From: Candidatus Omnitrophota bacterium
Lineage (GTDB): Bacteria > Omnitrophota > Gorgyraeia > S143-82
Assembly (NCBI GenBank): GCA_015494465.1
Contig: WGBD01000007.1
Span: 67,009 to 131,008 of the forward strand
Reading direction: 5' to 3'
Length of the DNA stretch: 64,000 nt
Positions within the stretch are counted from its first letter, which is position 1. Each line of letters starts with the position of its first letter. This document shows positions 1,260 through 59,758 of the stretch, piece by piece. The translations under genes and the position numbers were made by a program. The notes beneath the pieces are model-generated. The model did not search any database. It was given only the letters and a program-made list of their open reading frames with translations, and was not told the origin of the DNA.

Positions 1260-2257
1260 CGCAATCCCTCCTTTTCCTCCAACCCAAATATCAGGTTCAT
1301 ATTTTGAATCGCCTGCCCACTGGCCCCTTTAACCAGGTTATCTATTGTGGAGACTATAAGCAACTTGCGGGGAGCAAGCAGACGAATTGCTATGTGGCAC
1401 TGGTTGGTGTTGCGCACATCGAGATAACTCGGCAGGTCTTGTCTCACTACCACGAAGGGACTATTTGCGTAAAAAGACTCGTAGGCCTCCTTTACCTCCT
1501 CCGGATCCAGTCTTTTGTCGGTCTCTACATAGATACTGGCCACGATCCCCCTGTCTATTCCGACTATGTGAGGTACGAATACAAAGTTCTCTGCCTCTAT
1601 CCCCAGTTGGGAGAGTATCTCTGGGATGTGCTGGTGGGTGTTGGGCTTGTACGGATAGAGATTATTGGCCATGGAGACGAACAACAGCTCCTCCCTTATC
1701 TTTCGCCCCGCCCCGGAGGTGCCGGACTTGGCATCTACCCAGATCGAACGGAAGGAAAAGTTCTTTACGAACGGATAGAGACCCAGTATAACCGCGGTGG
1801 GGTAGCACCCCGGATTGGCCACCAGGCTTGCCTTCTTTATCTCCTCTCGCCTCAGTTCTGGTAGACCGTAGACCGCCTTTTTTAAGAGATCGGGACAGCT
1901 GTGCCTTACGCGATACCAGCGCTCGTAGACCTCTGCCTCCCTAAACCTGAAGTCCGCGCTCAGGTCAATCACCACCGGACCGCCCACGAGGCCAGGGACG
2001 AACTGTTGCGAGACGGTGTGGGGAAGGGCAAGGAAGACGCAATCGCACCTCTCTCTTATCGACCCCACATCTATCTCTTCCACTTCCAGATCCAATCCAG
2101 ACCAAGGATAGATAGTGGACAGCTTCTGCCCAGCACCTCGGCTTGCCACCAGCGAGACCTCAACCCTAGGATGTCTCAACAACCAACGCAGGAGCTCCTC
2201 CCCGGTGTGCCCGGTTATCCCCAATATCCCTACTCTAATGCGATCACCTGCGGGCAA
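1256..2257 (-). CDS. argC: N-acetyl-gamma-glutamyl-phosphate reductase ArgC
   Basis: The Rossmann N-terminus RIRVGILGITGHTGEELLRWL and the active-site block NPGCYPTA identify ArgC. The ORF track extends it to 2350. A TTG at 2255-2257 preceded by GGAGGTGG (SD) is proposed as the start, with an in-frame ATG at 2273-2275 as the alternative. Its stop overlaps the argJ start by 4 nt. Confidence 0.85.
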   Translation of the reverse strand: MPAGDRIRVGILGITGHTGEELLRWLLRHPRVEVSLVASRGAGQKLSTIYPWSGLDLEVEEIDVGSIRERCDCVFLALPHTVSQQFVPGLVGGPVVIDLSADFRFREAEVYERWYRVRHSCPDLLKKAVYGLPELRREEIKKASLVANPGCYPTAVILGLYPFVKNFSFRSIWVDAKSGTSGAGRKIREELLFVSMANNLYPYKPNTHQHIPEILSQLGIEAENFVFVPHIVGIDRGIVASIYVETDKRLDPEEVKEAYESFYANSPFVVVRQDLPSYLDVRNTNQCHIAIRLLAPRKLLIVSTIDNLVKGASGQAIQNMNLIFGLEEKEGLR

Positions 2258-3719
2258 AACTAACCACCTCCACATCGAACTGGTCCGGGGCCAGTTCGTT
2301 GTCCACCACGAACTGGCAGTCGGTGTTGAACCTGTGGCGAATGTTCGCAATTATGTCCTTCTGGGACTTAAGGTAATCTACAACCTCTTTTCGGGCTCTT
2401 ATTATAGCCCGTTTCTTCCTCCGCCTATCCTGCCTCAACGCGTACCTCAACTTGCGGAACAGGGTAATAGCGATCGTCCTAGGGGACTTCACCTTACCCC
2501 TCCCCGAACAGCAGGGGCAATCCACGAATGCCCGGGCTTCACTCGTTCGCTCGGTCCGTTCGCGGGTCATCTCTACCAGACCCAAAGGAGAAACCAATAC
2601 TATCTCCGACTTGGCCTTGTCGTTGGCTAAGGCTGCCTTGAGGACCGAGAGGACCTCGTTTCGATTTGCGGACAGCCTCATGTCTATAAAGTCTATTACG
2701 ATTATTCCCCCAATGTCCCGCAACCGCAACTGCCGACCTATCTCCTGGGCTGCCTCGCAGTTTACCATCAGGGCCATCTCTTCTTGATTCCGCTTGACTT
2801 GCTTGAACCTACCGCTGTTGACATCTATCACCGTAAGGGCGTGGGTCTCCTCTATGATCAAGTATCCACCACAAGGCAGGTGAACGATTGGGTTGTATAT
2901 CTCCTCTATCTGCTGTTCTACGCCCCTCAACTCGAACAGGGGCACATCAGCCCGGTACAACTCTACCCTGTCCAGGAGCCTGGGAGAACCGGACTTTATA
3001 AAGGATCGGATCCGAGAAAACTCCTTTTTATCGTCTATTACCAACCTGTCTATCCGCTCGTCGAAGTAGTCCCGCACCACCCTTAACAGGACATCCTCTT
3101 CTTCGTAGACCAAGGCAGGTGGTTTGATTCTCACTGCCCTGCGGTAAATACTTCTCCATTGATTGACGAGGTAATTGGCATCCTTTTCCAGATCGCGTCG
3201 AGGCACGCCAGTGGCTGCGGTCCTAACGATGAAGCCGTAAGGCCAGCGAAAGGACTGGACTACCTCTTTGAGTCTCTTTCTTTCCGCATCGTTCAAGACC
3301 TTTTTAGATACACCCCTCACCTTGGAAAAGGGCATCAGGACCATGTACTTGCCGGGAAGGGATATGTTGGTAGTCAAACGCGCACCCTTGCCTCCAAACG
3401 GCTCCTTGGAGACCTGCACCAAAAGGACATCCCCCTTTTGGACCACTTCTCCGATCGTCTTACCTTTGACCCTACTTTCCGCAGCAAAGATCGTATCCGC
3501 AGGCTCACTCATGTAAAGAAAACCCTTCTTCTCCAGACCGATGTTGACGAAGACTGCGTCCAAGGCGGGGGTAATGTCCTCGACTATCCCTTTGTAGATG
3601 TTATTGACGATCGACTTTTCCCCTAAGCGCTCGAAGAAGTAGTCTTCAATGCGCCCATTCTCAAGTATGACTACCCTCTTCTCCTGCTCGTCTACGCTTG
3701 CCAAAATCTCCCGAGCCAT
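2244..3719 (-). CDS. rng: ribonuclease G (RNase E/G family endoribonuclease)
   Basis: The 491-aa ORF has an N-terminal S1 domain (NIYKGIVEDITPALDAVFVNIGLEKKGFL) and an RNase E/G catalytic core (GGYLIIEETHALTVIDVNSG, IIVIDFIDM). The size matches RNase G rather than RNase E. Confidence 0.8.
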   Translation of the reverse strand: MAREILASVDEQEKRVVILENGRIEDYFFERLGEKSIVNNIYKGIVEDITPALDAVFVNIGLEKKGFLYMSEPADTIFAAESRVKGKTIGEVVQKGDVLLVQVSKEPFGGKGARLTTNISLPGKYMVLMPFSKVRGVSKKVLNDAERKRLKEVVQSFRWPYGFIVRTAATGVPRRDLEKDANYLVNQWRSIYRRAVRIKPPALVYEEEDVLLRVVRDYFDERIDRLVIDDKKEFSRIRSFIKSGSPRLLDRVELYRADVPLFELRGVEQQIEEIYNPIVHLPCGGYLIIEETHALTVIDVNSGRFKQVKRNQEEMALMVNCEAAQEIGRQLRLRDIGGIIVIDFIDMRLSANRNEVLSVLKAALANDKAKSEIVLVSPLGLVEMTRERTERTSEARAFVDCPCCSGRGKVKSPRTIAITLFRKLRYALRQDRRRKKRAIIRARKEVVDYLKSQKDIIANIRHRFNTDCQFVVDNELAPDQFDVEVVSFARR

Positions 3720-3772
3720 AAAGATGTCCTTGAAACGGATCTGGATACGAAATCAGACAGCTTTAAATCAAG

Positions 3773-3801
3773 ATTATACACCAACACCCAACGGAAGGCA
3801 A
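3773..3801 (-). promoter_or_regulatory. candidate sigma-70 promoter for rng
   Basis: On the minus strand, TTGCCT (-35), a 17-nt spacer and TATAAT (-10, preceded by TG) lie about 54 nt upstream of the rng ATG, in the 108-nt gap after the secretin stop. Confidence 0.3.
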
Positions 3802-3827
3802 GAGACCAAGGAAGGGGATAGGGCCCC

Positions 3828-5564
3828 TTACCTCTCCGCAGTCACCTCGGTCAGCCCTTCCAATCCTGCCTCCGGAGCCACCTCGGGCAAGCTGGGAGAC
3901 AACAAGGCCTGGGCCTCAGGGCTCACCGTGGCCACATCCACCTCAGGCACCGGGGAAGCGGGATCCACTATCTTACTGGTGAGGAAGATGAAGAGGTCGT
4001 TCTTGTACTTATAGGTAAACTTGCGGGAGAAGAGTTTTCCCAATACCGGCAGATCGGATACCAACGGCACCCCTATCTTACCCGTCTTCTCCTCGTCCCG
4101 CATCAGCCCACCTATCACCAAGGTATCGCCATTACGCATCATCACCTGCGTCTCCGCCTCCCGGACCTCCATTATCGGATAAGACACGGCGGTACCCTCG
4201 GTTGCATCCCCCAAGCCCGGTGAGACCTCACCGCTCTTGTTCACTACCGCAGGGTGCACTATTAGGTTGATGTAATCGTCACCACATATCTGAGGCACCA
4301 CATTCAACTGTATACCTATGTCCTGATAGTACTCAAGGTCAACGGACAGACTAACCGTACCGTTGCTTATCTCCTTGTCTATGCTGAGGATGGGATACTT
4401 CGTACCGACTAGGATAGACGCCTCCTGATTGGAGACGGTCAGGACCTTCGGAGTGGACAGGACATTCGCATCCGCCATGTCCTCCAAGGCCCGCAGGCCC
4501 AGGGTAAACTGATTACCAGTGAGGTGTTTAAATATAAACGATCCTCCCCCAGTAAATGTCTCGCGATTAATGGGATCTAGCCCTACCCCTGAGACCTGCT
4601 CATAGCCATAAGGATCTACATAATTGGCTCCCAGCAATAAGTGCACGACCTCCCTTACTGCCTCGCCCTTGTAGGACACATCCATATATGGGCTAAACGT
4701 AGTCCCGGTCATTACCTGTGCACCCAGATCCACCAGCTTCCTCCAATCCACCTCCACTATACTCGACTCGATGAGGACCAATTTGGGCATCTTGTCTATC
4801 TCCTTCAGGACCGCCTCCACCTTATCCAAGACGCTTTTGATGTCCGTTACTATCAGCTTCTTGGACCGGCTCTTTCTCTCGCTCTGCTTGCGCTCACTCT
4901 TCTCCAGCTTGCCCCGCTCTTCGCTGGCTACGAACTTCCATCCCCCAAGGTAGGTCATCTCCAGTATCTCTGCAGTACCTCGGGGAGAAAGGAAGCTCTC
5001 GACGATCTTGAGGGCATCGCCTGCGTCTATGTAGGTGAGGTCGAAGACGCGAGTCTCTACCTCCTTGACCTGCTGTAACTCCATCTGCTTCTTTTTGGTC
5101 TCTATGATCTTATCGATGGGTTTTACTATAATCGTATTACCTACCCGCTCGTATCCGTATCCATAGGCCTCTACCATGGTCTTGATCGCCTCTTCCCACG
5201 GCGTATCGGTGAAGGAGATGCTGGTGATCGTATCGGTAACTTCAGGGGAGATCACGATGTTTACCCCTGCGTCCTCGGCAATGCTCGCCAGGGCCTGGGC
5301 CAAGGTCATGTCGTTGCTGAAACTGACCGTGATCCTGGCCTCCCCTTCAGTCTTGGCATCCTTCTCAGCCGTGTCCGTCTCGCTTGCTTTCTTTTCGGAC
5401 TCGACTGACTTGGACGAGGTAGGGGTATCAACCGCCGATCCTTCCTCCGACTGGACAGTGGACTTGCTTACAGCTCCTGTATCAGTGGATCCCAAAGAAA
5501 CAGAGACCAGGACTCCAAGGCTAAATAGAGCCACTAACAAAGGAATGGATATCTTGCGGATCAT
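3828..5564 (-). CDS. outer-membrane secretin (PilQ/GspD family)
   Basis: The C-terminal secretin domain carries the signature GGLMRDEEKTGKIGVPLVSDLPVLGKLFSRKFTYKYKNDLFIFLTSKIV. Upstream of it are N0/secretin_N-like repeats (ITVSFSNDMTLAQALASIAEDAGVNIVISPEV) and a signal peptide. The ATG at 5562-5564 has a strong SD (AAAAGGAGGGGG) 6 nt upstream. The ORF track start at 5588 is 8 codons further upstream. Confidence 0.8.
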   Translation of the reverse strand: MIRKISIPLLVALFSLGVLVSVSLGSTDTGAVSKSTVQSEEGSAVDTPTSSKSVESEKKASETDTAEKDAKTEGEARITVSFSNDMTLAQALASIAEDAGVNIVISPEVTDTITSISFTDTPWEEAIKTMVEAYGYGYERVGNTIIVKPIDKIIETKKKQMELQQVKEVETRVFDLTYIDAGDALKIVESFLSPRGTAEILEMTYLGGWKFVASEERGKLEKSERKQSERKSRSKKLIVTDIKSVLDKVEAVLKEIDKMPKLVLIESSIVEVDWRKLVDLGAQVMTGTTFSPYMDVSYKGEAVREVVHLLLGANYVDPYGYEQVSGVGLDPINRETFTGGGSFIFKHLTGNQFTLGLRALEDMADANVLSTPKVLTVSNQEASILVGTKYPILSIDKEISNGTVSLSVDLEYYQDIGIQLNVVPQICGDDYINLIVHPAVVNKSGEVSPGLGDATEGTAVSYPIMEVREAETQVMMRNGDTLVIGGLMRDEEKTGKIGVPLVSDLPVLGKLFSRKFTYKYKNDLFIFLTSKIVDPASPVPEVDVATVSPEAQALLSPSLPEVAPEAGLEGLTEVTAER

Positions 5565-5621
5565 TGCCCCCTCCTTTTTGCCCCCCAATCCGATCTATCA
5601 TCGATTTAAATATAACACATT

Positions 5622-6029
5622 CTAACGCTTTTTAGTACCCTTTTTTCCTGAGCTATGCCCCTTGCGGTTGTTGGGCTTGAGCCAAAGCTCGTAAGAGTCT
5701 TTCCCATCGCTCAAGACCACATGATCAGGATAGATCTCGGTGATGACGAGCCCTGATATGCGATCCCCGACTTTGTACAGCTTCTTCTCAATGATCGCCT
5801 TGGACGGTCCCTTGGAACGATAGATGATCCCTTGGAGCCTCAGGGCAAGGACCTTTTTACCGCTGTTCTCCTCTTCTTGGAAGAGGATCTTGCCAGAGCT
5901 ATCAACCACCGGCATAAGGGGATCCTTTCTGCCGTGATCGTCGTAGACGAACTTTTTTTCTCCTCCAAAGGCGAGAAAAGAGACAGCAAACAAAAGACCC
6001 AAACCCAAAAGGACCCTAACAGATCTCAT
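5622..6029 (-). CDS. PilP/GspC-like secretin-interacting protein (signal peptide plus HR domain)
   Basis: The 135 aa from [18 protein letters not shown] form a signal/anchor. The segment [49 protein letters not shown] matches the PilP/GspC homology-region pattern (L.L.G....AII....V..GD.I....V..I....V.L). It lies immediately upstream of the secretin. The ORF track start at 6125 overlaps hisI and is rejected. Confidence 0.5.
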
Positions 6030-6367
6030 AAGCGCCCCCCTCGATAGAAACAACTGCGGTTGCCCGTGTGACAGGCTATACCGCCCACCTGTTCCACCTT
6101 GATTAATATTGTATCCCCATCGCAATCATAATACAACTCTTTTACCAACTGATAGTGACCGGAGGTCTCACCCTTCACCCAAACCTTCTGACGGGACCTG
6201 CTCCAATAGGTGGCCTTGCCGGTCTCTATGGTCTGCTTCAGGGTATCTTTGTTCATGTAGGCCAACATTAGCACATCGCCTTTCTCGTAGTCTTGGACTA
6301 TCACTGGGATCAAGCCCTTCTCGTCGAACTTGATCTCATCCAAGAAAGAAGTGTCCAACTTATTCAT
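6026..6367 (-). CDS. hisI: phosphoribosyl-AMP cyclohydrolase HisI (monofunctional)
   Basis: The 113-aa ORF has [89 protein letters not shown], the canonical HisI metal-binding CDGD...CH...C core. No other his genes are in the window. Confidence 0.9.
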
Positions 6368-7745
6368 CCTCTCCTCCTTTCTCCTTCAATCCGTACTTCT
6401 CCAGGAGATTGTACAACTGGGTCCGACTTATACCCAAGAGATTAGCAGAAAGGGATATGTTCCCGTTCGTCCGCTCCAATGCAGAGGTCAAGAGGCGTCT
6501 CTCTAACTCCTCCTTTGCCCGTTTCAGATTAAAGGATTCGCCTAGGTTGAGGGGAAACACCCCGCTAGATCCGCCGGAGGGTATCTGGATGTGCTCTCCC
6601 TTGATTAGATGGGAATCGCACAGGATCACCGCTCGCAAGATCACATTCTCTAGTTCCCTCACATTGCCTGGCCAATGGTAAGAATACAGCTTCTCGATGG
6701 CCGACTCCGACAGGCCTATAATCCTCCTCTTCATCTGGGAGGAGAGTTTATCCACGAAGTACTGGGCCAACAAGATGATGTCTTCTCCCCTTTCTCTCAA
6801 CGGGGGCAGGTGTATGTTTATCACATTGAGCCTATAGAAAAGGTCCTCCCGGAAGGTCCCTTCCTCCACCTTCTTGGAGAGGTCCGCATTGGTTGCGGAG
6901 ATGATCCGGATGTCCAAAGGCACATCCTCTACCGAGCCTACGGGTTGTATCACCTTCTCTTGGAGGACGCGCAGGAGTTTTACCTGGAGGTGAAGGGGCA
7001 ATTCCCCTACCTCGTCCAAGAACAAGGTCCCACCGTTGGCCAGCTCAAACCTGCCTTTCTTGTTGCTCACTGCCCCAGTAAAGGCCCCCTTTTTGTGACC
7101 AAAAAGCTCGCTTTCCAGGAGGTGTTCGGGGATGGCCCCGCAGTTTACCGCCACGAACGGGCCCTCCTTTCTGGCGCTGAGATTGTGGATCGCCCGGGCG
7201 ACCAATTCCTTGCCCGTACCAGACTCTCCAGTAATCAGGACCGTAAAGTCCCCGTGGGCAACATGTTGAATCAGGTCGAAGACCCTCTGCATCTGGGTGG
7301 ACTTACCCACCAATCCCGCAAAGCCTATGTCCCCAGGCAATCGGTAGCTCTTTATGGCCTCCTCGATCTCCCTTATGTGCAGGGCACGGGTGAATATGAT
7401 CTTTAGCTCTTCCACCTCTATGGGTTTCACATAGAAGTCGAAGGCCCCATTCCTGATCGCGGAGATGGCGTTCTCGCGGGTGTCGTTAGCGGTAATCACC
7501 ACGACCTTGAGGAGCGGGTCTCGGGAGAGCATCTCGGAGAGGAGTTGCAGGCCTTCGTTTCCTTCCGGGCTCCCCGAGAGGTTTATGTCCAATCCGACCA
7601 ACTGGGGACGGAAGGACTCCAGTAAAGAAAAGACCTCCTCCCTATTACCTCTGGACAGGGCCACCTCGTAGTCCTCGGCAAAGGCCCACTTCAATTGATT
7701 CAGTATCGAGGGATCGTCGTCTATTATCAACAGCCTCGGCTTCAT
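6360..7745 (-). CDS. prsR: sigma-54-dependent response regulator (REC + AAA+ + Fis-HTH), probable PEP-CTERM-box regulator PrsR
   Basis: The REC domain is [15 protein letters not shown]...DINLSG. The sigma-54 activator core has the Walker [16 protein letters not shown] and the GAFTGA loop ([11 protein letters not shown]), followed by ESELFGH and a C-terminal HTH. The PrsR call rests on adjacency to a multi-TM histidine kinase, EpsI and the exosortase. PilR is the alternative. Confidence 0.7.
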
Positions 7746-7747
7746 TC

Positions 7748-9562
7748 TTAATATACCTCTTTCCCGAACCTTAATATCACCTCTGTACCGACATTCCGTT
7801 CCGAGACCACCTCTATTCTACCGTTGCAGGTCTCGAGCAACGACTTGACCTCGTACATCCCTATACCCAATCCGCTCTCTTTGGTAGTGACGAATGGGCG
7901 AAAGAGCTTCTTCCTCACGAAATCTTCGTCCATCCCCGTACCGGTATCCTTTACTATTATCGACCATTCCCCTCTATCGTTTCGTTCGCTCCAGACGGAT
8001 ATCTCGCCTTCTCCTTTCTTGCGGATGGCGTCCACCGCGTTGAGGAGGAGGTTCTCCACGATCCGGGCGAAGGCAGACTTACTGCAGTTGAGAACCAAGG
8101 CCTCGTCAATGTCAACCTCGACCCGTATACCAGTGGCTCCCAGGTTAAGTCGTTCCAAGACCTCCTCAACCACCTCCCTAGGGCTGAAGCGAGCGGTATC
8201 GCCCTCTACGGAGCTAGACTTCCGATAAGAGGAAAGCCTGTCCACCACTGCCTTCAGCCTCGCTAGTACCTCCTTTATCGTGGTGTAAGCGTCGGAGACG
8301 AATTCTGGGTTGTCTTTGTTCTTTTTCCAATTCATCACCAACAGGGAAAGACCGGAAACCGAATTCTTCACATCGTGGACCAGAAAGGAGACCACCCGAT
8401 TGAACTGGGCAAACTGCTGGATCTCCATGAGCTGACGCGACAGCTTGGATAAAGTAAGCATAACCGATATGTTCCGGCCTATCATGTAGATTAGATCCGA
8501 AGGTACCGTCCCCTTATCCAACCCCTTCAACAACATGAGCCCCACCAACTGCTTGCGAAATACCAACGGGATTATGAGTTCCACATCCTTGAATAGCTCC
8601 TCTTCCAGGCCGATTCGCCATATCTCTTCGGGAGATACGGGCCCATCCTTCAACCAAAGATACTTCTTAACCTCAGGTGGTAAGGAATCGAACGCCTCGG
8701 ACTCCCCCTTCCACACGATCGACAGATCCCCTACCCCAAACCTAGCCCTGAAGTAATCCCTAGCTCGCCTTACTATCTCGTCTTCGTCGGTTATGTCCTC
8801 AATAGTAGTGAGAAAGTCGTCCCACTCCTTGACCGGATCGTAATGTTGGTAACCTAGGATCCCCTGGAAAAGGCCCTTCATCCACCTCTTAACCCCTTCA
8901 CCGAAGAACAATATCAACCCCAAACTCACCAGACCCAGGGCTATCAGCGTCGACCAAAAGACCCTGACATCCAATCGCAATACATAGACGAGCTTGACTA
9001 TACCCGCAATCACCAGCATGTACAAGGCAGACAGCATCAGCAATGCCGAGGCGTCTACGACCTTTACGGTAGCAGTAGATCTACGGTCCCAGGTGCGCAA
9101 GGCCATGTAAAGGGAGATCAGCCCTACGCACAGCAGTGCCCACACGACGGGCCAGAGAAGACGGTTAAACATCAAAAACCAGGCCCCTAAGAAGATAAAG
9201 GCCAAGTTGTGGACCAGCAACCATACATAGGCAGAGGCCGACCCCTTGCGCAGGACCGTATCCGAGGAAAGGATGAGCAAGGCATGGCCGATAATCGCCC
9301 CTGAGATGAATATCTGGCCCCAAAGACCAAGGCTGGGATAGACCGACTCCACTGCAGACAACCCGGCGAACAGTAACAGCAACATTCCCAACCAGGGCAC
9401 CACATACCTGTACTTCCTCGCCACCGTACGGTGGGCCAGACCAAACAGGTGGAGTATCCAGGATAGGAAGAGGCCCAGCAAAACGATGTTCGGAGGAATC
9501 CAACCGCTCAGAAATCTACCCAGCAAGCCGACGAAGAAGAAGAGGAGGTAGAGTCCCAACAT
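7748..9562 (-). CDS. prsK: multi-pass membrane sensor histidine kinase, probable PEP-CTERM system kinase PrsK
   Basis: The N-terminal half is a run of about 8-10 hydrophobic helices. The C-terminal part has a GAF-like region, the H-box FLVHDVKNSVSGLSLL and an HATPase_c domain (ENLLLNAVDA...DTGTGMD...GLGIGMYEV). An ATG at 9560-9562 has GAGAGAGG upstream. The ORF track start is a TTG at 9592. Confidence 0.7.
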   Translation of the reverse strand: MLGLYLLFFFVGLLGRFLSGWIPPNIVLLGLFLSWILHLFGLAHRTVARKYRYVVPWLGMLLLLFAGLSAVESVYPSLGLWGQIFISGAIIGHALLILSSDTVLRKGSASAYVWLLVHNLAFIFLGAWFLMFNRLLWPVVWALLCVGLISLYMALRTWDRRSTATVKVVDASALLMLSALYMLVIAGIVKLVYVLRLDVRVFWSTLIALGLVSLGLILFFGEGVKRWMKGLFQGILGYQHYDPVKEWDDFLTTIEDITDEDEIVRRARDYFRARFGVGDLSIVWKGESEAFDSLPPEVKKYLWLKDGPVSPEEIWRIGLEEELFKDVELIIPLVFRKQLVGLMLLKGLDKGTVPSDLIYMIGRNISVMLTLSKLSRQLMEIQQFAQFNRVVSFLVHDVKNSVSGLSLLVMNWKKNKDNPEFVSDAYTTIKEVLARLKAVVDRLSSYRKSSSVEGDTARFSPREVVEEVLERLNLGATGIRVEVDIDEALVLNCSKSAFARIVENLLLNAVDAIRKKGEGEISVWSERNDRGEWSIIVKDTGTGMDEDFVRKKLFRPFVTTKESGLGIGMYEVKSLLETCNGRIEVVSERNVGTEVILRFGKEVY

Positions 9563-9563
9563 C

Positions 9564-10151
9564 TCACAGCCTCTCTCGCACGCTTGCGTCAAAGGCCCTT
9601 ATCAATTCCTCTCCAGCCGAGACCTCCCGAGGCGACAATACCAAGCGAATCAGATAAGTCCGCTTGGGGTGACCGGTCAAGGCGTAGTAGAGGTACTTTA
9701 GCTGATAAAGGTAATAGTTGTCCAGGTATTCGCTACCCAAGGCATACCAATACCACACCAATTGGTCGCCAGCCCTGTCCCGCACGGTCAACTGATTGAT
9801 CCTGTGCCCGTTGACAACCACCTTGCGTTTACCCAAGACCTTCTCCCCACCACCCTTAAGACACACCTCCGGAGGGTGCACCACCCTTCGATCGCTTTCG
9901 CTGACTATCACCGTAAGGTAGACGCTCCCACCAGGACAAGTATACCTCCTAGCCAGGACATTCCTGGTCCCCAAGATCTTATACACATAATCCTTGAGAG
10001 TAAGGGATTCCGAACTGCACTCCCCGAGTTCTTCAGGGACGACATTGGCCAGGTCCACTGACCTATTCACATCCCTGCCTACCTTGAAAAAGAGGTAATT
10101 CCCCGCGCAGGCAACCACGAACACCAAGAGGACTAATCCAATCCTCTTCAT
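9564..10151 (-). CDS. epsI: EpsI-family exosortase-associated protein
   Basis: The 195-aa ORF has a signal/anchor (MKRIGLVLLVFVVACAG). Its size, position immediately downstream of the exosortase and composition (YTCPGGSVYLTVIVSESDRRVVHPPEVCLKGGG) match the EpsI family that pairs with XrtA. Confidence 0.6.
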   Translation of the reverse strand: MKRIGLVLLVFVVACAGNYLFFKVGRDVNRSVDLANVVPEELGECSSESLTLKDYVYKILGTRNVLARRYTCPGGSVYLTVIVSESDRRVVHPPEVCLKGGGEKVLGKRKVVVNGHRINQLTVRDRAGDQLVWYWYALGSEYLDNYYLYQLKYLYYALTGHPKRTYLIRLVLSPREVSAGEELIRAFDASVRERL

Positions 10152-11047
10152 CTTCGGTCTTCCTCACCCACCTTCTTAGAGGCCACCGCAGAAAGCAAGT
10201 GGGCCACTATCAAAAGCCCTATCAAGTCCAAGCCAAATACCACATATCCCAAGGCATCGTGAAATCGTCCCAAGGCCACCTCCACCCCGTAAACATCCGC
10301 AACGAACCCCAGAGAAAGCACCCTAAAGACATTCCCTAGGAAGGCAACCAAAGGCGACAAGAGAACCAACATCAGGGTGTATCTGGTGCGCCAGCGCCTG
10401 ACTCGACCCAGCAAAAGGGCTATCGCCATCAGAGACACGATGGAACGCAATCCACTACAAGGGGCACCGACTTCCAACTGGGCCCGAGCGGTAAATATTC
10501 GATTTCCTACTACCTTGGTAGCGATACCAATGGCGCTCAACAACTTTCCCGCCAAGACCGCCGAGACACTCTTCAGATGCAGGGCAACCTGTTCCAGAAA
10601 TACCATGGGTAAAGGAATCGCCAACAGTGAGAAGAAGACCCAAAATCGGATCTTCCTCCAAAGCTGAGCCTCTAGTGAATACCTCAACACCACCAGAACG
10701 GACAGCCAGACCGATAAGGCCAATAGGAAGTAGACCTTTATCCATGAGGAGATGAGATAGAGGAGAGATACGAAGAGGACTGCTACCCAACCAGCCTTTC
10801 CCCCTCTAGCCAATGGCTCAGGCAGTCCACGGATGCGAAAGTCCCGATATAGGTGATAAATAAGCGCTACTATCGCAAGGCCTAGCACCAGAGGCCCGTG
10901 GGAATAATAAGACTCGTAAGCCATCCACCTCTCCCAGAACCAGCGGTAAACGGGCAGGCCCATTACCGCCACACCCACCGACAGGGCCAACCAGGTGAGC
11001 AGATTAATCAAATCTCTCGATGTCGTCTTCCTCGAGATAATCTCCAT
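10148..11047 (-). CDS. xrtA: exosortase (XrtA/EpsH family transpeptidase)
   Basis: The 299-aa polytopic membrane protein (about 8 helices) has a cysteine in the GAPCSGLRSIVSLMAIALLLG block and an Asn/Arg block FLGNVFRVLSLGF. This is consistent with the exosortase Cys-Arg-Asn triad. It is adjacent to EpsI and a PrsK/PrsR-like pair. Confidence 0.7.
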   Translation of the reverse strand: MEIISRKTTSRDLINLLTWLALSVGVAVMGLPVYRWFWERWMAYESYYSHGPLVLGLAIVALIYHLYRDFRIRGLPEPLARGGKAGWVAVLFVSLLYLISSWIKVYFLLALSVWLSVLVVLRYSLEAQLWRKIRFWVFFSLLAIPLPMVFLEQVALHLKSVSAVLAGKLLSAIGIATKVVGNRIFTARAQLEVGAPCSGLRSIVSLMAIALLLGRVRRWRTRYTLMLVLLSPLVAFLGNVFRVLSLGFVADVYGVEVALGRFHDALGYVVFGLDLIGLLIVAHLLSAVASKKVGEEDRR

Positions 11048-12416
11048 TCTGCACCTCTATGATCTCCAAAGGGATCTTGCCGGGATTCTCCAGCTTGTGC
11101 AACTCTCCCGCAGGTATGTAGGTGCTCTCGTTGGGATGGACATAGAACACCTCATCCCCCCGCCTCACCTTGGCCACGCCCCTCAACACTACCCAGTGCT
11201 CACTGCGATGCTGATGCCTCTGGAGGCTGAGGGCCTTGCCGGGATAGACCACTATCCTCTTGGTCTTGTACCTCGGGCCCCGATCCAGGATCACATAATA
11301 TCCCCAACCCCTCTCTACCCTGGCAGGATCTCTCCAGGAAAGGTCCTCTTCCTGCTCCAGCCTCTCTGCGACGGACTTCACCTCCTGAACATCGTCCATG
11401 GAGCAGACCAGGAGGGAGTCCGGCGTATCTACCACCACCAGGTCCTGCACCCCTACCAGCCCCACCGTCTTGTCCTTAGGAGAGATAACCAAACTCCCCC
11501 GGGCAGATTCTGAGACCACTCGTCCCAAGAACACATTCCCCTGCTCGTCTTTGTCGTACATCTCGTAGACTGCAGACCAGCTCCCCAGATCAGACCAACT
11601 GAACCTAGCAGGCGAGCACCACAGCTCGTCCAGTTTCTCCAAAAAGGCATAGTCTATCGATATGGAAGGCACCATGTCGTAGGCCTTCACCAGAGCTTCC
11701 TCCCCAGAGGCGTCGGCTATAGGTCGATACACCTCTGGCATCAACTCCTCTGCCTTTCGCGAGAAGGCCTCCAGGTCGAAGAGGAACATACCGCTATTCC
11801 AGAGATATCTACCCTCCGAGACATAGGCCTTGGCCCTGTCTAGGTCGGGCTTCTCGGTAAAACCTAAAACCTTACGGAGCTCAAACCGGGTATCGTCACC
11901 TAGACGCTCTCCCCCCACCTCTATGTACCCATAGCCAGTCGCGGGATAGGTAGGTGGTATGCCGAATACCACAAAAATCTTCCCCTCTCGGCACCTCTCA
12001 CCTGCCCAAGAGAGCTGGTGTCGAAATCTCTCCGTCTCTCGAATAAGGTGATCACAGGGAAGCATAACGCAGGGCCCACCCGCCCCTAACTCCTTGAGGG
12101 TCTTGACCGCCAACACGAGGGCGGGTGCGGTGTTCCTGCCTCGGGGCTCAGAAAGGAACACGGTCCTTCCCCTAGGGATACCGATATTATCTAGCTGCTG
12201 AGACAGAAGTCTACTCTGATCTGAGTTGGTCACCACTACCAACTTGCCCTCTTCCCCAAGCAGGTCCCACACCCTCATCACCGTCTCCTCGAAGAGGCTG
12301 GAATTACCGAAGAGAGATATGAGGTGTTTCGGGAGACCCTTTCTGCTGAGGGGCCAGAGCCTAGTTCCCTTCCCACCCGCAAGGAGTATCGCGTGCACTT
12401 CTCGACCTACCTCCAC
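11004..12416 (-). CDS. manC: mannose-1-phosphate guanylyltransferase / mannose-6-phosphate isomerase (ManC/XanB type)
   Basis: The N-terminal nucleotidyltransferase motif is ILLAGGKGTRLWPLSRKGLPKHL. The C-terminal cupin ends with GELHKLENPGKIPLEIIEVQNGDYLEEDDIERFD. The 470-aa length is typical of the bifunctional enzyme. Confidence 0.85.
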   Translation of the reverse strand: MEVGREVHAILLAGGKGTRLWPLSRKGLPKHLISLFGNSSLFEETVMRVWDLLGEEGKLVVVTNSDQSRLLSQQLDNIGIPRGRTVFLSEPRGRNTAPALVLAVKTLKELGAGGPCVMLPCDHLIRETERFRHQLSWAGERCREGKIFVVFGIPPTYPATGYGYIEVGGERLGDDTRFELRKVLGFTEKPDLDRAKAYVSEGRYLWNSGMFLFDLEAFSRKAEELMPEVYRPIADASGEEALVKAYDMVPSISIDYAFLEKLDELWCSPARFSWSDLGSWSAVYEMYDKDEQGNVFLGRVVSESARGSLVISPKDKTVGLVGVQDLVVVDTPDSLLVCSMDDVQEVKSVAERLEQEEDLSWRDPARVERGWGYYVILDRGPRYKTKRIVVYPGKALSLQRHQHRSEHWVVLRGVAKVRRGDEVFYVHPNESTYIPAGELHKLENPGKIPLEIIEVQNGDYLEEDDIERFD

Positions 12417-13531
12417 TTTACTGAATAGTCACCCCGCACATACCTCACCAGGGCCACAACCGCTGCCAGATTCATCACAAAGAAGGTATACGGCAGGGAC
12501 AACCTGCCCCTCGGCACCACCCCAAGAGAAAGTGGCACCACCGCCAGAAGGTAAAAGGCCGTCTGCAGGGCAAAGAACAGACCTGCCCACAGTGAGCCCG
12601 CTAAGGCGCTGGCAACATAACATACTACCATCGCATAGGGTACAAATAAACGAAATAGTTTGTGGGACAAAAACTGCCAGAATACCGGGTTCTTTAGGCT
12701 TACGAAGAAGGGATCAAGAGCGACTAGCTGAAAGTTCCCTATCAAAGTCCGCACCTTCCTTTGAAATTCCTCCCATTCGTCCTTGGCCACCCGATCGTAT
12801 ATCACCGCCTCCCGCTGAAAGACTATCCTCTTGCCCGCCCTTATCGCGTTAAAGGGCTGATAGACATCGTCGAGTATGACATCCCTCGGCAGGTCCGACA
12901 CCAATGAACCCCGCATTGCGTAAAGGGCACCAGTAGCACCCGTCAGGGAGAAGAACCTGGATTCACAGTCGCGAATAAGCTTCTCGTATCGCCAGTAAAG
13001 GCCTATGTCCCCCCTCACCTCACCCACATCGTCCAAAAACACCAACTCCCCGCTTACCGCTCCTACCGAAGGATCCCCCAAAGGTCTGATCAAGGTCCTA
13101 AGTGCGGAGGGGGCCAATGCCTGCCTGGCATCGCTAAAGACCACCACCTCCGCAGATAGATCCCGAGTGAGCTCGTTCAATACTGTCGGCTTACCCATAC
13201 GCTGGGCAAAGACCTGTATGGAGATGTTCTGGGATAGATCACCGAGGGCACTCCTTATACGCAAGGCCTCTTCCTGAGTTCCCTCGTCCAATCCAATCCT
13301 GACCTCTAACCGATCCAACGGATAGTCCGAGGCGAACACGCTCTTCAACTTCTCTATCAAAGCCTCCACCTCCCGATAACAGGAGATCACCATCGTGATC
13401 CTCGGGAGAAAATCCCCTTCCTTAACCGGCCTTGGTCTTATCCTCGCCAAACAACACATCAGCAGTGGATACCCCAGATAGGTGTACCCTACAAACAGGC
13501 AACTCGTTATCATTGCAACTTCTGCGATCAT
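12407..13531 (-). CDS. family-2 glycosyltransferase with C-terminal membrane helices
   Basis: The GT-A fold region has MVISCYREVEALIEKLKSV and the DxD region VVVFSDARQ. A hydrophobic C-terminal third suggests a synthase-like GT2. Confidence 0.7.
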   Translation of the reverse strand: MIAEVAMITSCLFVGYTYLGYPLLMCCLARIRPRPVKEGDFLPRITMVISCYREVEALIEKLKSVFASDYPLDRLEVRIGLDEGTQEEALRIRSALGDLSQNISIQVFAQRMGKPTVLNELTRDLSAEVVVFSDARQALAPSALRTLIRPLGDPSVGAVSGELVFLDDVGEVRGDIGLYWRYEKLIRDCESRFFSLTGATGALYAMRGSLVSDLPRDVILDDVYQPFNAIRAGKRIVFQREAVIYDRVAKDEWEEFQRKVRTLIGNFQLVALDPFFVSLKNPVFWQFLSHKLFRLFVPYAMVVCYVASALAGSLWAGLFFALQTAFYLLAVVPLSLGVVPRGRLSLPYTFFVMNLAAVVALVRYVRGDYSVKWR

Positions 13532-14220
13532 CTCCGGGAATAAAAACGAGACTTTATCGATTCGTAAACTCTACCTCCCAGCAATCTCTTCAGGGCCAAG
13601 GCAGAAAACCTGCGGACTTTTAGCCAACCCAGGTAAACTGGATCCTGGGAGAGAACCCTTTCCAATTGGGAGACCCCGTCAACCTTCCGAACGACGAATC
13701 TCGGAGCCAAGAATTCACCCCTCCAAACTCCGGGCTCGGAAGTAAAGGCGACCTCTACCCCGTAGTCCCTTAACACATCTTCACTGCGGGGGGGCACTAC
13801 GCCGTGGGGAAAGGAAAACCAGACAGGTCCCTGCAGCCACCTATTCAACTTATCTATCGCCTTCCTCAACTGGGCCTCTAACTCCTCTCGAGAGCTTATC
13901 GGTTTGTGCTCGTATCCGTGCAGACCGATCCTGATCCCTGCCTCTCTCAGTATGTCCAACTCCCCTTCCGCAAGCATCTTTCTTCCCTGCAAGGTTTCAC
14001 CCAGATAGGCTGGTGAGACGAAGACTACCGTCTCTATACCGGATTCCACTATCGGATCCAAGGCCTCCAGAATGGAGTTATACCCATCGTCAAAGGAGAG
14101 GATCACTCTACCTGAATAGGCCTTGATCACCCGCAGGTGATCCAAGAATCTCGGGAGGGAAACGGTATAGGGATCTCCATCCTCACCTATGTGGTGATAC
14201 ATCAGGACTACCTTCTCCAC
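13528..14220 (-). CDS. polysaccharide deacetylase (NodB homology domain)
   Basis: The NodB-type motifs are LSFDDGY, HGYEH and conserved His/Asp positions. The family is commonly found in exosortase loci. Confidence 0.7.
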   Translation of the reverse strand: MEKVVLMYHHIGEDGDPYTVSLPRFLDHLRVIKAYSGRVILSFDDGYNSILEALDPIVESGIETVVFVSPAYLGETLQGRKMLAEGELDILREAGIRIGLHGYEHKPISSREELEAQLRKAIDKLNRWLQGPVWFSFPHGVVPPRSEDVLRDYGVEVAFTSEPGVWRGEFLAPRFVVRKVDGVSQLERVLSQDPVYLGWLKVRRFSALALKRLLGGRVYESIKSRFYSRR

Positions 14221-18916: not shown

Positions 18917-19324
18917 CTACATTGCATAGGTGTTCTCTATGGTCCCGTCCCGGTTTATTCCAATGACATAGGGTTGATCCCTAGTCAGCTGATAGGAGGT
19001 CCTGTTGGCGTAACACACATCGGCTATGCTGGTATCTGGGGTGTCCCCAAGGTGGAACTCAAAGTACCTGGCAAAGGATTGGTCAGGTGGGGTTATGTCC
19101 AGGCTATTGAAGTAGGCGTCCGAGGATATCCACACCGCGTGTTCCGCGTAATAGCGAATCAAGGCCATCCTTATCTGACCCAGATACTTCAAGGCCTCGG
19201 ATTGCCTGGCCCTCTCCACCGTCTTAAAGTAGACCTGCTCCCCTAACGAGATCAGGATCCCGAGTATGATCAGGACCATCACCAGCTCCAAAAGGGTAAA
19301 TCCCGGTTTCGCCTTCATACCCAT
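18917..19324 (-). CDS. prepilin-type (type IV pilin / pseudopilin) protein
   Basis: The class III signal is MKAKPG|FTLLELVMVLIILGILISL (G-F-T-L-L-E with a hydrophobic helix). The mature protein is about 125 aa. Confidence 0.7.
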   Translation of the reverse strand: MGMKAKPGFTLLELVMVLIILGILISLGEQVYFKTVERARQSEALKYLGQIRMALIRYYAEHAVWISSDAYFNSLDITPPDQSFARYFEFHLGDTPDTSIADVCYANRTSYQLTRDQPYVIGINRDGTIENTYAM

Positions 19325-43514: not shown

Positions 43515-43881
43515 TCATTACCTTTTCTATCTTCTCCTTGAGTATCTCAGGAGTAAACGGCTTGACGATGTAATCGTTTACCCCCAGCTGGAGGGCCTCC
43601 ATGACCTCGTTCTTCTCTGCCTCTGTGGTCACCATTATAACCGGAACGGTACCAAACTTGTCCGAGGCCCTTATGGATTTCACCAGCGTAATACCATCCA
43701 TCTCAGGCATGTTCCAGTCAGTCAACACCAAGGAGATGTCCCCTTCCTTGAGTTTGGTAAGGGCATCTATACCGTTTTCTGCCTCCACCACATCCGAATA
43801 CCCTATCCGCTCCAGCGTATTCTTTATAATCCTGCGTATCGTAGCGGAATCGTCAACCACCAACACCTTTGACATAATCAC
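43507..43881 (-). CDS. cheY: CheY-like single-domain response regulator
   Basis: The motifs are KVLVVDDSATIRRIIKN, LVLTDWNMPEMDG and DYIVKPF (D-D...D...T...K). Confidence 0.85.
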   Translation of the reverse strand: MIMSKVLVVDDSATIRRIIKNTLERIGYSDVVEAENGIDALTKLKEGDISLVLTDWNMPEMDGITLVKSIRASDKFGTVPVIMVTTEAEKNEVMEALQLGVNDYIVKPFTPEILKEKIEKVMNG

Positions 43882-44710: not shown

Positions 44711-44715
44711 AGCAA

Positions 44716-45105
44716 CTACTTCCTAAGGCGCTTTAGCCTGCGCAATACGTACTCCAACAGCTCCTCTTGATGCTTGGTGTATATGTCCACAAACTTTACC
44801 GCCACGCAGTGCTCCCCATTATCGTTTGTCCACTGCCGAACCACCTTCGCTAATGAGACTACCGGCCCAAATATCTGGTTCTCGGGTAAGGGTTTGTGAT
44901 AATCCGGTATCTGCACCTCTACCTTAAGCACATCCTGATCGTTAAGTGGGGCATCCACCACGAAGGCCACCCCGCCACCACTGATGTCGATAATCCTGCC
45001 CTCCTTCATTCGGGACTTCATTGGAATCTGTAAGACCTGATAGCGCAAGCGGATCTGTGAAGGGACTCTTGCATATCTCCTTCTCTCCTTAGCGTCCACG
45101 ACCAC
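44716..45105 (-). CDS. PilZ-domain (c-di-GMP-binding) protein
   Basis: The RxxxR motif sits in ERRRYARVP and the D-x-S-x-x-G motif in IIDISGGGVAF. These are the two c-di-GMP-binding PilZ signatures. Confidence 0.75.
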   Translation of the reverse strand: MVVDAKERRRYARVPSQIRLRYQVLQIPMKSRMKEGRIIDISGGGVAFVVDAPLNDQDVLKVEVQIPDYHKPLPENQIFGPVVSLAKVVRQWTNDNGEHCVAVKFVDIYTKHQEELLEYVLRRLKRLRK

Positions 45106-46972: not shown

Positions 46973-47011
46973 CCCCCGCCCTCCTCATTCGCTAGGCGTC
47001 AGTAATCCACC

Positions 47012-47386: not shown

Positions 47387-47406
47387 ATCCCGCCTCCCTG
47401 GTTTTT

Positions 47407-48252: not shown

Positions 48253-48258
48253 ACCCCC

Positions 48259-49158: not shown

Positions 49159-49159
49159 G

Positions 49160-50227: not shown

Positions 50228-50238
50228 GAATCCACCTC

Positions 50239-51330: not shown

Positions 51331-51342
51331 TCTCTCGTCAAC

Positions 51343-52500: not shown

Positions 52501-52521
52501 CCCCCCTCCTTGCTCCCGGAA

Positions 52522-59753: not shown

Positions 59754-59758
59754 AGGCC

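What the first reader, a model, noticed from the sequence alone, without database searches (positions are those of the whole stretch)
3828..6367. Orphan PilP-like/secretin pair with hisI wedged between it and the exosortase regulators
A secretin with N0 domains and a small PilP/GspC-like HR-domain protein are present without pilM/N/O, the gspE/F/G ATPase and platform genes, or any pilus ATPase nearby. They sit directly downstream of prsR-hisI with overlapping junctions (prsR/hisI by 8 nt, hisI/pilP-like by 4 nt), so one transcript is likely. A secretin co-transcribed with an exosortase regulator suggests an outer-membrane conduit linked to the EPS / PEP-CTERM system rather than a conventional T2SS or T4P. 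A lone monofunctional hisI in this position is also odd. Only one prepilin-like gene is visible (18917-19324), about 13 kb away.
Basis: inference. Interest (0 to 1): 0.55.

Follow-up and report, generated by a model that had tools for sequence, protein, structure and literature searches.

The report
Pilus secretin pair stranded beside exosortase genes
The small protein and the secretin are the last two genes (PilP and PilQ) of the usual Omnitrophota type IV pilus operon, cut off from pilMNO and joined to hisI in one clade, and their place next to the exosortase regulators looks like a lineage-specific rearrangement, not a new export system.

Summary
On the minus strand the order is prsK, prsR, hisI, a 135-aa signal-peptide protein, a 578-aa secretin, then rng. 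prsR/hisI overlap by 8 nt and hisI/small by 4 nt. No other pilus or T2SS machinery gene lies in the 64-kb window or the 10 kb beyond its high end.

- In about 70 other Omnitrophota species the orthologous pair ends the locus pilins, DUF4900, pilM, pilN, pilO, small, secretin, DUF2344, rng.
- The window belongs to a monophyletic clade (12 assemblies). It shows hisI-small-secretin in all 11 where upstream DNA is visible, and never pilMNO.
- What lies upstream of hisI varies: xrt-epsI-prsK-prsR, hisA-hisF, recA, a phosphoesterase, or manC.
- Two close relatives (secretins 83% identical) differ by presence or absence of the exosortase cassette.
- The small protein has the GspC/PilP/GspB HR fold. 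The secretin is closest to solved PilQ structures.
- Overlapping junctions are the norm here (29 of 59), so they say little about function.

Best reading: a dispersed PilP-PilQ module of a type IVa pilus. I could not check whether pilMNO and the ATPases lie elsewhere in the genome. Interest is low to moderate.

The parts
3828..5564 (-). PilQ-type secretin, 578 aa from ATG 5564 (the ORF extends to TTG 5588). Signal peptide, Ser/Thr/Glu/Lys-rich linker, STN/N0 domain (aa 101-149), one N1-type domain (aa 171-259), secretin domain (aa 359-534), Pro/Glu/Ala-rich tail.
   Evidence: Pfam PF00263 133 bits, PF07660 39 bits, PF03958 25 bits. NCBIfam PilQ 220.4 and GspD 220.9 bits, both below cut-off. 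The closest solved sequences are all PilQ (4av2, 9sh1, 3jc8, 6w6m, 6ve2; 90-96 bits), against 75 bits or less for GspD. 381 homologs, mostly Omnitrophota 'PilQ'.
5622..6029 (-). PilP-position protein, 135 aa. N-terminal signal or anchor without a lipobox cysteine, conserved FxYDxHGxKDP(M/L)xPVV motif, C-terminal HR-type beta-sandwich, Lys-rich tail.
   Evidence: Orthologous to the gene between pilO and the secretin in 68 of 73 other Omnitrophota loci. AlphaFold2 pLDDT is 86-92 over aa 60-120. Foldseek: 3oss_C GspC HR domain TM 0.75, rmsd 2.1; 4wfw GspB TM 0.59. Family profile against PDB sequences: GspC 7oio E 0.005; M. xanthus PilP 3jc8 E 0.11 on the N-terminal motif. Pfam T2SSB in 29 of 34 family members.
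6026..6367 (-). hisI, monofunctional phosphoribosyl-AMP cyclohydrolase. Overlaps the small gene by ATGA.
   Evidence: NF000768 176.5 bits, above the 126 cut-off. hisI-small-secretin is present in all 11 clade assemblies with visible upstream DNA, with a 4-nt overlap in 10 of them. It follows hisA-hisF in the basal members.
6360..7745 (-). PrsR, sigma-54-dependent response regulator of the PEP-CTERM/exosortase system. A neighbour, not a conserved partner of the pair.
   Evidence: TIGR02915 537.8 bits, above the 502.6 cut-off. Absent next to hisI in L005/6, L009, L011, L012, L090 and L096.
7748..9592 (-). PrsK-like histidine kinase
   Evidence: TIGR02916 is the best hit at 228.5 bits, below the 300 cut-off.
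9564..11047 (-). EpsI (9564-10151) and exosortase (10148-11047)
   Evidence: TIGR02914 56.7 bits, above the 42.8 cut-off. PF09721 144.5 bits. No specific Xrt subtype reaches its cut-off.
18917..19324 (-). Prepilin-like gene (MGMKAKPG|FTLLELV...) directly after dxs. Conserved at the same position in relative L096, where only manC and hisI separate it from the pair.
   Evidence: PF07963 N_methyl 25.7 bits. 57% identical to the L096 7207-7608 product.
3720..3827 (-). Intergenic gap between the secretin stop and the rng start. It holds the best sigma-70-like site of the region (TTGCCT-17-TATAAT, 3801..3773).
   Evidence: No terminator-like site lies in this gap.
2244..3719 (-). rng (RNase G), the phylum-wide conserved downstream neighbour of this secretin
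   Evidence: PF10150 329.7 bits. rng lies downstream of the secretin in 54 of 65 other Omnitrophota loci and in most clade members.

Best explanation
The two genes are the PilP and PilQ orthologs of the type IVa pilus system that is standard in Omnitrophota. PilQ forms the outer-membrane secretin pore. The small protein is anchored by its N-terminus in or at the inner membrane. It binds the secretin N0 (STN) domain through its HR beta-sandwich, and probably binds the PilN/PilO alignment complex through its conserved N-terminal motif.

In the ancestor of the window's clade, the pilins-DUF4900-pilMNO part of the locus was removed from in front of pilP. The promoter-less pilPQ pair then became translationally coupled to hisI, the last gene of a hisAFI operon. 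Later rearrangements changed what lies upstream of hisI. In the window's sub-lineage this is an EPS/exosortase cassette ending in prsK-prsR.

So the pair is read through from whatever operon lies upstream, while it still serves a pilus whose other parts are encoded elsewhere.

Shown: orthology, synteny history, domain folds, variable exosortase adjacency.
Inferred: that pilMNO, pilB, pilC and pilT exist elsewhere in this genome, that the N-terminal motif binds PilNO, and that the genes are co-transcribed.
For: Orthology and synteny:
- (1) Relatives at about 40% identity (L007, L008) have N_methyl pilins, DUF4900, PilM_2, PilN, PilO, small, secretin, DUF2344, rng by precomputed Pfam labels.
- (2) In a survey of 76 further species loci, the small gene is upstream in 68 of 73, PilO in 61 of 66, PilM+N+O+small in 50 of 56, and rng downstream in 54 of 65.
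- (3) The clade secretins are monophyletic and nested among these PilQs.
- (4) Secretin identity to relatives tracks that of rng and argC. Examples: 55/65/56% to L003 and 43/46% (secretin/rng) to L007. This fits vertical descent under constraint.

Variable context in the clade:
- (5) Upstream of hisI the clade has xrt-epsI-prsKR (window, L003, L091, L092; prsKR in L001), hisA-hisF (L005/6, L090), a metallophosphoesterase (L009), recA (L011, L012) or manC (L096).
- (6) L091 (with the cassette) and L096 (without) have 83% identical secretins and the same downstream gene.

Protein-level evidence:
- (7) The closest solved sequences are PilQ, not GspD.
- (8) The HR fold of the small protein is confirmed.
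- (9) Its N-terminal motif matches the M. xanthus PilP N-terminus. Within the clade, 12 of 24 motif positions are invariant.

Background:
- (10) A conserved prepilin gene lies nearby.
- (11) Type IVa pilus genes are reported in nearly all Omnitrophota (PMC10066038).
- (12) A PilB/PilT-like ATPase lies within the fetched flanks of only 7 of 90 loci, so a distant ATPase is normal in this phylum.
Against: - No pilM, pilN, pilO, pilB, pilC or pilT was seen anywhere I could look: the 64-kb window, 10 kb beyond its high end, about 3 kb beyond its low end, and the 10-kb flanks in 11 relatives. The rest of the 782-kb contig and of the genome was out of reach.
- The clade's small protein carries clade-specific changes at otherwise near-invariant positions (RDPF to KDPM/KDPL, PLV to PVV, LEGII to LQGII). 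These could reflect a changed partner.
- Neither the PilQ nor the PilP curated model reaches its cut-off.
- Five clade species do keep the pair at the end of an exosortase operon.
Confidence: 0.7

Rival explanations
1. The pair has been co-opted as the outer-membrane exit of the exosortase/EPS system. It is transcribed from the xrt-epsI-prsK-prsR operon and exports PEP-CTERM proteins or polysaccharide, as the T2SS does for other C-terminal sorting-tag systems.
For: - The pair is in the same tightly packed gene string as xrt-epsI-prsK-prsR in 5 clade species.
- In L001 EPS genes flank the pair on both sides.
- There is precedent: MYXO-CTERM and GlyGly-CTERM proteins cross the outer membrane through the T2SS (PMC11980579).
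- No pilMNO is seen locally.
Against: - The hisI-small-secretin unit predates the adjacency and exists without it in 6 of the 11 clade assemblies with visible upstream DNA.
- The cassette is absent at this position in L096, which keeps a secretin 83% identical to its cassette-bearing relative.
- No PEP-CTERM-tailed ORF is in the window.
- No sigma-54 promoter consensus lies near the pair, and matches to it are not enriched (20 found, 21 expected).
- Overlapping junctions are the base rate in this genome.
- The exosortase itself matches no defined Xrt subtype.
Confidence: 0.08
2. The clade has lost PilMNO. The pilin, PilP and PilQ are kept for a reduced or different type IV filament function, for example DNA uptake, or sharing the secretin with a Tad or T2SS-like machine.
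For: - pilMNO is absent next to the pair in every clade member.
- There are clade-specific substitutions in the PilP N-terminal motif.
- Independent loss of adjacency is seen in L031 and L060.
- Secretins that serve both pilus extrusion and DNA uptake are described (T. thermophilus PilQ, PMC5745081 abstract).
Against: - The N-terminal motif is as strongly conserved within the clade as the HR domain, which suggests a retained partner.
- Type IVa pilus sets are near-universal in the phylum.
- No positive evidence exists for any alternative machine.
Confidence: 0.15
3. The pair is GspC/GspB plus GspD of a type II secretion system rather than pilus components.
For: - The small protein hits T2SSC and T2SSB more often than PilP in Pfam.
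- Its best fold matches are GspC and GspB.
- The NCBIfam GspD score equals the PilQ score.
Against: - The orthologs sit behind genes labelled PilM_2, PilN and PilO and behind pilins, not GspL/M/E/F.
- The closest solved secretins are all PilQ.
- GspC, PilP and GspB share one HR fold, so the fold match does not discriminate between them.
Confidence: 0.05

Closest known systems
PilP-PilQ of the type IVa pilus pilMNOPQ operon (Myxococcus, Pseudomonas, Neisseria; canonical Omnitrophota loci such as L007 and L008)
   Same: Same gene order for the small HR-domain protein then the secretin. The secretin has an N0/STN domain, an N1 domain and a secretin domain, and is closest to solved PilQ chains. 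The small protein has a YxYxxxG(K/R)(K/R)DP motif like M. xanthus PilP plus an HR beta-sandwich. The position upstream of rng is shared with about 54 other Omnitrophota.
   Different: pilM, pilN, pilO and the pilins are not adjacent, and hisI is translationally coupled in their place. The small protein has no lipobox cysteine. The secretin has no AMIN domains. The curated PilQ and PilP models do not reach their cut-offs.
GspC HR domain-GspD N0 complex (3OSS) and GspB/OutB (4WFW) of type II secretion
   Same: The predicted fold of the small protein superposes on both (TM 0.75 and 0.59). It has a single N-terminal anchor plus a linker plus an HR domain, as in GspB.
   Different: There are no T2SS genes in the orthologous loci. 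The secretin scores higher against PilQ than against GspD structures. There is no PDZ or coiled-coil domain as in GspC.
XrtA/PEP-CTERM system (exosortase, EpsI, PrsK, PrsR)
   Same: These four genes are really present directly upstream and probably in the same transcript.
   Different: From my own knowledge, a secretin is not a described component of that system. The adjacency is not conserved in the clade. No PEP-CTERM substrates are in the window.
T2SS-dependent surface sorting of MYXO-CTERM and GlyGly-CTERM proteins
   Same: It gives a mechanistic precedent for a secretin that serves a C-terminal sorting-tag system (PMC11980579).
   Different: Those systems use a complete T2SS encoded apart from the sortase. 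Nothing here shows such a dependence.

Membership tests
Secretin superfamily (PF00263) | C-terminal secretin domain matched over its full length above the curated cut-off | tested here: met
   133.1 bits against a cut-off of 27.5, model positions 1-169 of 169
Type IVa pilus secretin PilQ (TIGR02515) | Score at or above the curated NCBIfam cut-off | tested here: not met
   220.4 bits against a cut-off of 284.35. GspD TIGR02517 scores 220.9 against 351.35.
Type IVa pilus secretin PilQ | Closer to experimentally characterised PilQ than to GspD, SctC or RcpA | tested here: met
   The top six PDB sequences are PilQ (90-96 bits). The best GspD scores 75 bits and RcpA 60 bits.
Type IVa pilus secretin PilQ | Encoded with pilM-pilN-pilO-pilP | tested here: not met
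   Not met in the window or in any of the 11 clade assemblies with visible upstream DNA. Met by the orthologs in 50 of 56 other Omnitrophota species.
Type IVa pilus secretin PilQ | Periplasmic N0 domain that docks PilP | tested here: met
   STN/N0 PF07660 39.1 bits against a cut-off of 28.4, at aa 101-149. The docking itself was not tested.
PilP / GspC-HR / GspB superfamily | HR-type beta-sandwich fold | tested here: met
   AF2 pLDDT 86-92 over aa 60-120. Foldseek 3oss_C prob 1.00, TM 0.75, rmsd 2.1; 4wfw prob 1.00.
PilP (PF04351) | Sequence match to the PilP model | tested here: not met
   The window protein has no PF04351 hit. Only 2 of 34 family members hit it, at E 0.016 or weaker. T2SSB hits 29 of 34.
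PilP | Lipoprotein signal (lipobox cysteine) | tested here: not met
   There is no cysteine in [26 protein letters not shown].
PilP | N-terminal segment that binds PilN/PilO | tested here: inconclusive
   The family profile aligns its FxYxxxGKRDPF motif to the M. xanthus PilP N-terminus with E 0.11. The motif is conserved in the clade. Binding is not testable here.
XrtA/PEP-CTERM system accessory gene | Conserved co-location with the exosortase across relatives | tested here: not met
   Adjacent in 5 of the 11 clade assemblies with visible upstream DNA and in 0 of 76 other Omnitrophota loci.
XrtA/PEP-CTERM system | PEP-CTERM substrate genes in the neighbourhood | tested here: not met
   A regular-expression scan of all window ORFs of 40 aa or more found none. 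The rest of the genome was not examined.
Type II secretion system | gspE, gspF, pseudopilins and gspL/M with the secretin | tested here: not met
   None among the annotated window ORFs.
Monofunctional HisI | PRA-CH domain only, above the equivalog cut-off | tested here: met
   NF000768 176.5 bits against a cut-off of 126. 113 aa with no HisE part.

The most novel reading that the evidence does not exclude
In this Omnitrophota clade the PilP-PilQ module works without PilMNO as a stand-alone outer-membrane gate. In the five species where it ends the xrt-epsI-prsK-prsR operon, it is the exit route for PEP-CTERM proteins or the associated exopolysaccharide. That would be the first secretin tied to an exosortase system.
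Probability: 0.07. Interest if true: 0.7.

Novelty: new member of a known kind. Interest (0 to 1): 0.25.

Why it matters
As read here, this is mainly a caution for annotation. In compact, single-strand genomes, overlapping junctions and shared transcripts do not imply shared function, and comparative synteny resolves an apparent 'orphan' secretin as the tail of a pilus operon.

It also records a small evolutionary oddity. A secretin pair stayed fixed next to rng across a phylum while its operon partners were replaced. It then travelled for a long time welded to hisI.

If instead the clade truly lacks PilMNO, or the secretin serves the exosortase system, it would bear on the open question of how PEP-CTERM proteins cross the outer membrane.

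Tried and rejected
- Genome-wide search for pilM/N/O/B/C/T. The window comes from GCA_027052805.1, contig JALUEM010000002.1 (781,960 bp). The tools only let me read 10 kb beyond the high end (L093: no pilus machinery) and about 3 kb beyond the low end (L095). The single genome-contig scan went to the synteny survey, and this assembly was not among its hits.
- Second secretin in the same genome. None of the 120 listed secretin homologs lies on a 781,960-bp contig. This is weak evidence only.
- Sigma-54 promoter search (TGGCAC-N5-TTGCW, up to 2 mismatches). 20 matches against 21 expected, none near the pair.
- Internal promoter or terminator scan of 2000-12600. Counts are at shuffle level. The only strong site is in front of rng.
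- PEP-CTERM tail scan of the window. Nothing found.
- Homolog search for the prepilin-like protein. Only the protein itself came back. A 57% identical ortholog was later found by synteny in L096, so the word-based prefilter had missed it.
- Idea that 'PrsR-like' hits beside canonical pil loci show an old pilus-exosortase link. Rejected, because BLASTP finds full-length PrsR relatives only in L001, L003 and L081.
- Idea that the pilin and pilPQ are the two ends of an ancestral pil locus split by insertions. Attractive for the window's sub-lineage (L096: dxs-pilin-manC-hisI-pilP-pilQ). Not supported by the basal hisAF members, which show no pilin within 10 kb.
- Pfam scan of the 1041-aa ORF beyond the window. 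No family hit.
Full report
**What is in the sequence**

All genes in the region are on the minus strand. In transcription order they are:
- manC (11004-12416)
- an exosortase (10148-11047)
- epsI (9564-10151)
- a PrsK-like kinase (7748-9592)
- prsR (6360-7745)
- hisI (6026-6367)
- a small ORF (5622-6029)
- a secretin (3828-5564)
- a 108-nt gap, then rng, argC and argJ

Reading the sequence confirms the 8-nt prsR/hisI overlap (ATGAATAA) and the 4-nt hisI/small overlap (ATGA). It also corrects two starts. The small protein begins at ATG 6029, giving 135 aa that open with [21 protein letters not shown]. The secretin most likely begins at ATG 5564, behind AAAGGAGGGGG, giving 578 aa.

Family scans support each label:
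- PrsR is above its equivalog cut-off.
- PrsK has its best hit to the right family, but below cut-off.
- EpsI, the exosortase (no defined Xrt subtype) and monofunctional HisI are supported.
- The secretin has Secretin, STN/N0 and N1 domains.
- The small protein has only sub-threshold T2SSC and T2SSB matches.

**Is the pair locally orphan?**

Yes.
- Pfam annotation of the large minus-strand ORFs of the 64-kb window (150 aa or more, plus the prepilin-like ORF) found housekeeping genes, an EPS cluster, an Mrp/Nuo-like complex, a chemosensory cluster and an F-type ATP synthase. It found no PilM/N/O, PilB/C/T or Gsp components.
- Profiles I built from about 60 Omnitrophota PilM, PilN and PilO sequences found nothing in the window or in the 10 kb beyond its high end.
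- Only one prepilin-like ORF exists, at 18917-19324.

**What the pair is**

The secretin has 381 homologs at E below 1e-10. Almost all come from Candidatus Omnitrophota, and those that carry a name are called PilQ.

Two distant relatives on long contigs (about 40% identity) have this order by precomputed Pfam labels: N_methyl pilins, DUF4900, PilM_2, PilN, PilO, an unlabelled or T2SSB-weak small protein, the secretin, DUF2344, RNase G.

I then scanned one genome per GTDB species with a secretin alignment (80 loci). I classified their ORFs with iterated phmmer/hmmsearch profiles seeded from those labelled genes. Among the 76 loci outside the window's clade:
- the small gene is directly upstream of the secretin in 68 of 73
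- PilO is upstream in 61 of 66
- PilM+PilN+PilO+small are all present in 50 of 56 with at least 3 kb visible
- rng follows in 54 of 65, and DUF2344 plus rng in 52 of 65

The window's small protein aligns along its whole length with these PilP-position proteins. So the pair is the PilP-PilQ end of the standard Omnitrophota pil locus. The secretin-rng adjacency in the window is the phylum-wide one.

**Protein-level checks**

- By sequence, the six closest solved chains to the secretin are all type IVa PilQ (Neisseria, Myxococcus, Vibrio, Pseudomonas; 90-96 bits). They rank ahead of every GspD, at 75 bits or less.
- A profile of the small-protein family hits the GspC HR domain (7oio, E 0.005). 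It also hits GspB and two more GspC entries. Through its N-terminal FxYxxxGKRDPF motif it hits the N-terminus of M. xanthus PilP (3jc8, E 0.11).
- An AlphaFold2 model built from ten clade sequences is confident over aa 60-120 (pLDDT 86-92). Its best PDB matches are the GspC HR domain from the GspC-GspD N0-N1 complex (3oss_C: TM 0.75, rmsd 2.1 Å, 33% identity) and GspB (4wfw).
- The HR fold is therefore met. The curated PilP and PilQ sequence models are not met. There is no lipobox.

**History of the arrangement**

Close relatives form a monophyletic clade nested among the canonical PilQs (NJ tree). I recovered 12 distinct assemblies including the window.

In all 11 whose upstream DNA is visible, the order is hisI-small-secretin, and the gene calls show the 4-nt overlap in 10 of them. 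None has pilMNO.

| Upstream of hisI | Loci |
|---|---|
| xrt-epsI-prsK-prsR | window, L003, L091, L092 |
| prsK-prsR, contig ends | L001 |
| hisA-hisF | L005/L006, L090 (= L013) |
| metallophosphoesterase | L009 |
| recA | L011, L012 |
| manC | L096 |

- The hisAF members are the basal branch. The simplest history is that pilPQ came to lie behind a hisAFI operon, and later rearrangements cut between hisF and hisI. That explains the 'lone' hisI.
- L096 is especially telling. Its backbone (5-FTHF cyclo-ligase, RNase Y, YmdB, xseA, xseB, dxs, pilin-like, manC, hisI, small, secretin) is collinear with the window. It lacks both the wzy-to-GT2 block and the xrt-epsI-prsK-prsR block.
- The L096 secretin is 83% identical to that of L091, which has the cassette. 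So the exosortase cassette comes and goes at this site while the pair is kept.
- Downstream context also varies: rng-argC-argJ, an EPS cluster (L001), GT4-rnfC (L011, L012), or a reverse-gyrase-like gene (L091, L096).

**Constraint**

- Secretin identity to relatives tracks that of rng and argC in the same loci. The gene evolves like a vertically inherited, constrained gene.
- Within the clade, the N-terminal motif of the small protein (12 of 24 positions invariant) is at least as conserved as its HR domain. I take this as a sign of a retained binding partner.
- From my own knowledge of PilP biology, that partner would be PilN/PilO. This is inference.
- The motif also carries clade-specific substitutions (RDPF to KDPM/KDPL). 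That leaves room for a changed partner.

**Co-transcription**

- A consensus scan finds no convincing promoter or terminator between prsR and the secretin. Its best sigma-70-like site (10 of 12) lies in the gap after the secretin, in front of rng. One transcript from prsR, or from further upstream, through the secretin is plausible.
- This says little about function in this genome. All of about 60 genes of the window are co-directional, 29 of 59 junctions overlap, and 15 more have gaps of 20 nt or less. That includes junctions between plainly unrelated genes such as dxs/pilin and rng/argC.
- The sigma-54 promoter consensus is not enriched, and no match lies near the pair.
- No PEP-CTERM-tailed ORF is in the window.

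**What remains open**

- The window comes from GCA_027052805.1, contig JALUEM010000002.1 (781,960 bp). I could not read the rest of it.
- Published surveys find type IVa pilus gene sets in nearly all Omnitrophota (PMC10066038).
- In the canonical loci a PilB/PilT-like ATPase lies within the fetched flanks in only 7 of 90 cases. Dispersed pilus genes are therefore normal in this phylum.
- Two other lineages (L031, L060) also show secretin-DUF2344-rng without pilMNOP upstream.
- A weak lead: a 1041-aa ORF about 7 kb beyond the window's high end resembles the DUF4900/PilX-like protein that follows the minor pilins in canonical loci (19.5 bits).

The idea has a real precedent. MYXO-CTERM and GlyGly-CTERM proteins reach the surface through the T2SS (PMC11980579). 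But the comparative data show that the secretin pair is older than its adjacency to the exosortase genes, exists without it, and survives its loss. I put that reading at under 10%.

**Verdict**

- The functional interpretation is largely not supported.
- The feature is a new member of a known kind (PilP-PilQ) in an unusual but explicable gene context.
- Interest is 0.25.

Noticed in passing
window 1-64000: All of about 60 genes are on the minus strand and about 95% of the window is coding. 29 of 59 junctions overlap and 15 more have gaps of 20 nt or less, so operon-like packing joins unrelated genes.
   Followed up: yes
window 18917-19324 (-); L096 7207-7608: The prepilin-like gene overlaps the dxs stop by 10 nt and precedes a Wzy_C gene. 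The word-based homolog search returned only the protein itself. A 57% identical ortholog sits at the same place after dxs in L096, where the usual Gly before the cleavage site is Ser.
   Followed up: partly
window 43853-53912 (-): Chemosensory cluster: a FliN_C/CheC-like protein, CheA, CheR, two HDOD proteins, a HEAT-repeat protein, CheB, an MCP and CheW. No flagellar genes are in the window. It might be a pilus-type (Chp-like) signalling system.
   Followed up: no
L093 1-3024 (window-equivalent about 70.3-73.3 kb, beyond the window's high end): A 1041-aa ORF with a weak match (19.5 bits) to my Omnitrophota DUF4900/PilX_N-like profile, including an AxYLAEEGL motif, but no Pfam hit. It may mark pilus genes just outside the readable range.
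   Followed up: partly
L014-L089 (canonical Omnitrophota loci): The order pilQ-DUF2344-rng is conserved across the phylum (52 of 65). DUF2344 is missing between the secretin and rng in the window's clade.
   Followed up: partly
L031 9782-11497; L060 9718-11277: Two other Omnitrophota lineages have secretin-DUF2344-rng with no pilMNO or pilP upstream. UDP-sugar dehydrogenase and epimerase genes, or a radical SAM gene with PilZ nearby, sit there instead. These look like independent splits of the pil locus.
   Followed up: partly
L001 5592-15417: In this clade member the secretin is followed by an EPS cluster instead of rng: flippase, GT2, pyruvyl transferase, hexapeptide acyltransferase and GT4. 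Polysaccharide genes therefore flank the pair on both sides.
   Followed up: no
window 3828-5564 (-), protein aa ~25-85 and ~535-578: The secretin has a Ser/Thr/Glu/Lys-rich low-complexity linker after the signal peptide and a Pro/Glu/Ala-rich C-terminal tail. A basic insertion (KLEKSERKQSERKSRSKK) in the N1 region appears in the consensus of the 19-sequence secretin alignment, which is dominated by clade members.
   Followed up: no
window 14183-16471 (-): A 762-aa protein with a GH123-like catalytic domain sits inside the EPS/exosortase cluster, next to a polysaccharide deacetylase. It is conserved in L003, L091 and L092.
   Followed up: no
window 55887-63942 (-): An F-type ATP synthase operon (atpI-like, a, c, b, delta, alpha, gamma, beta) is followed directly by a DUF4140/DUF4139 protein and glycogen synthase. 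Published work links some Omnitrophota F-ATPase loci to pilus clusters, but none is seen within 10 kb here.
   Followed up: partly
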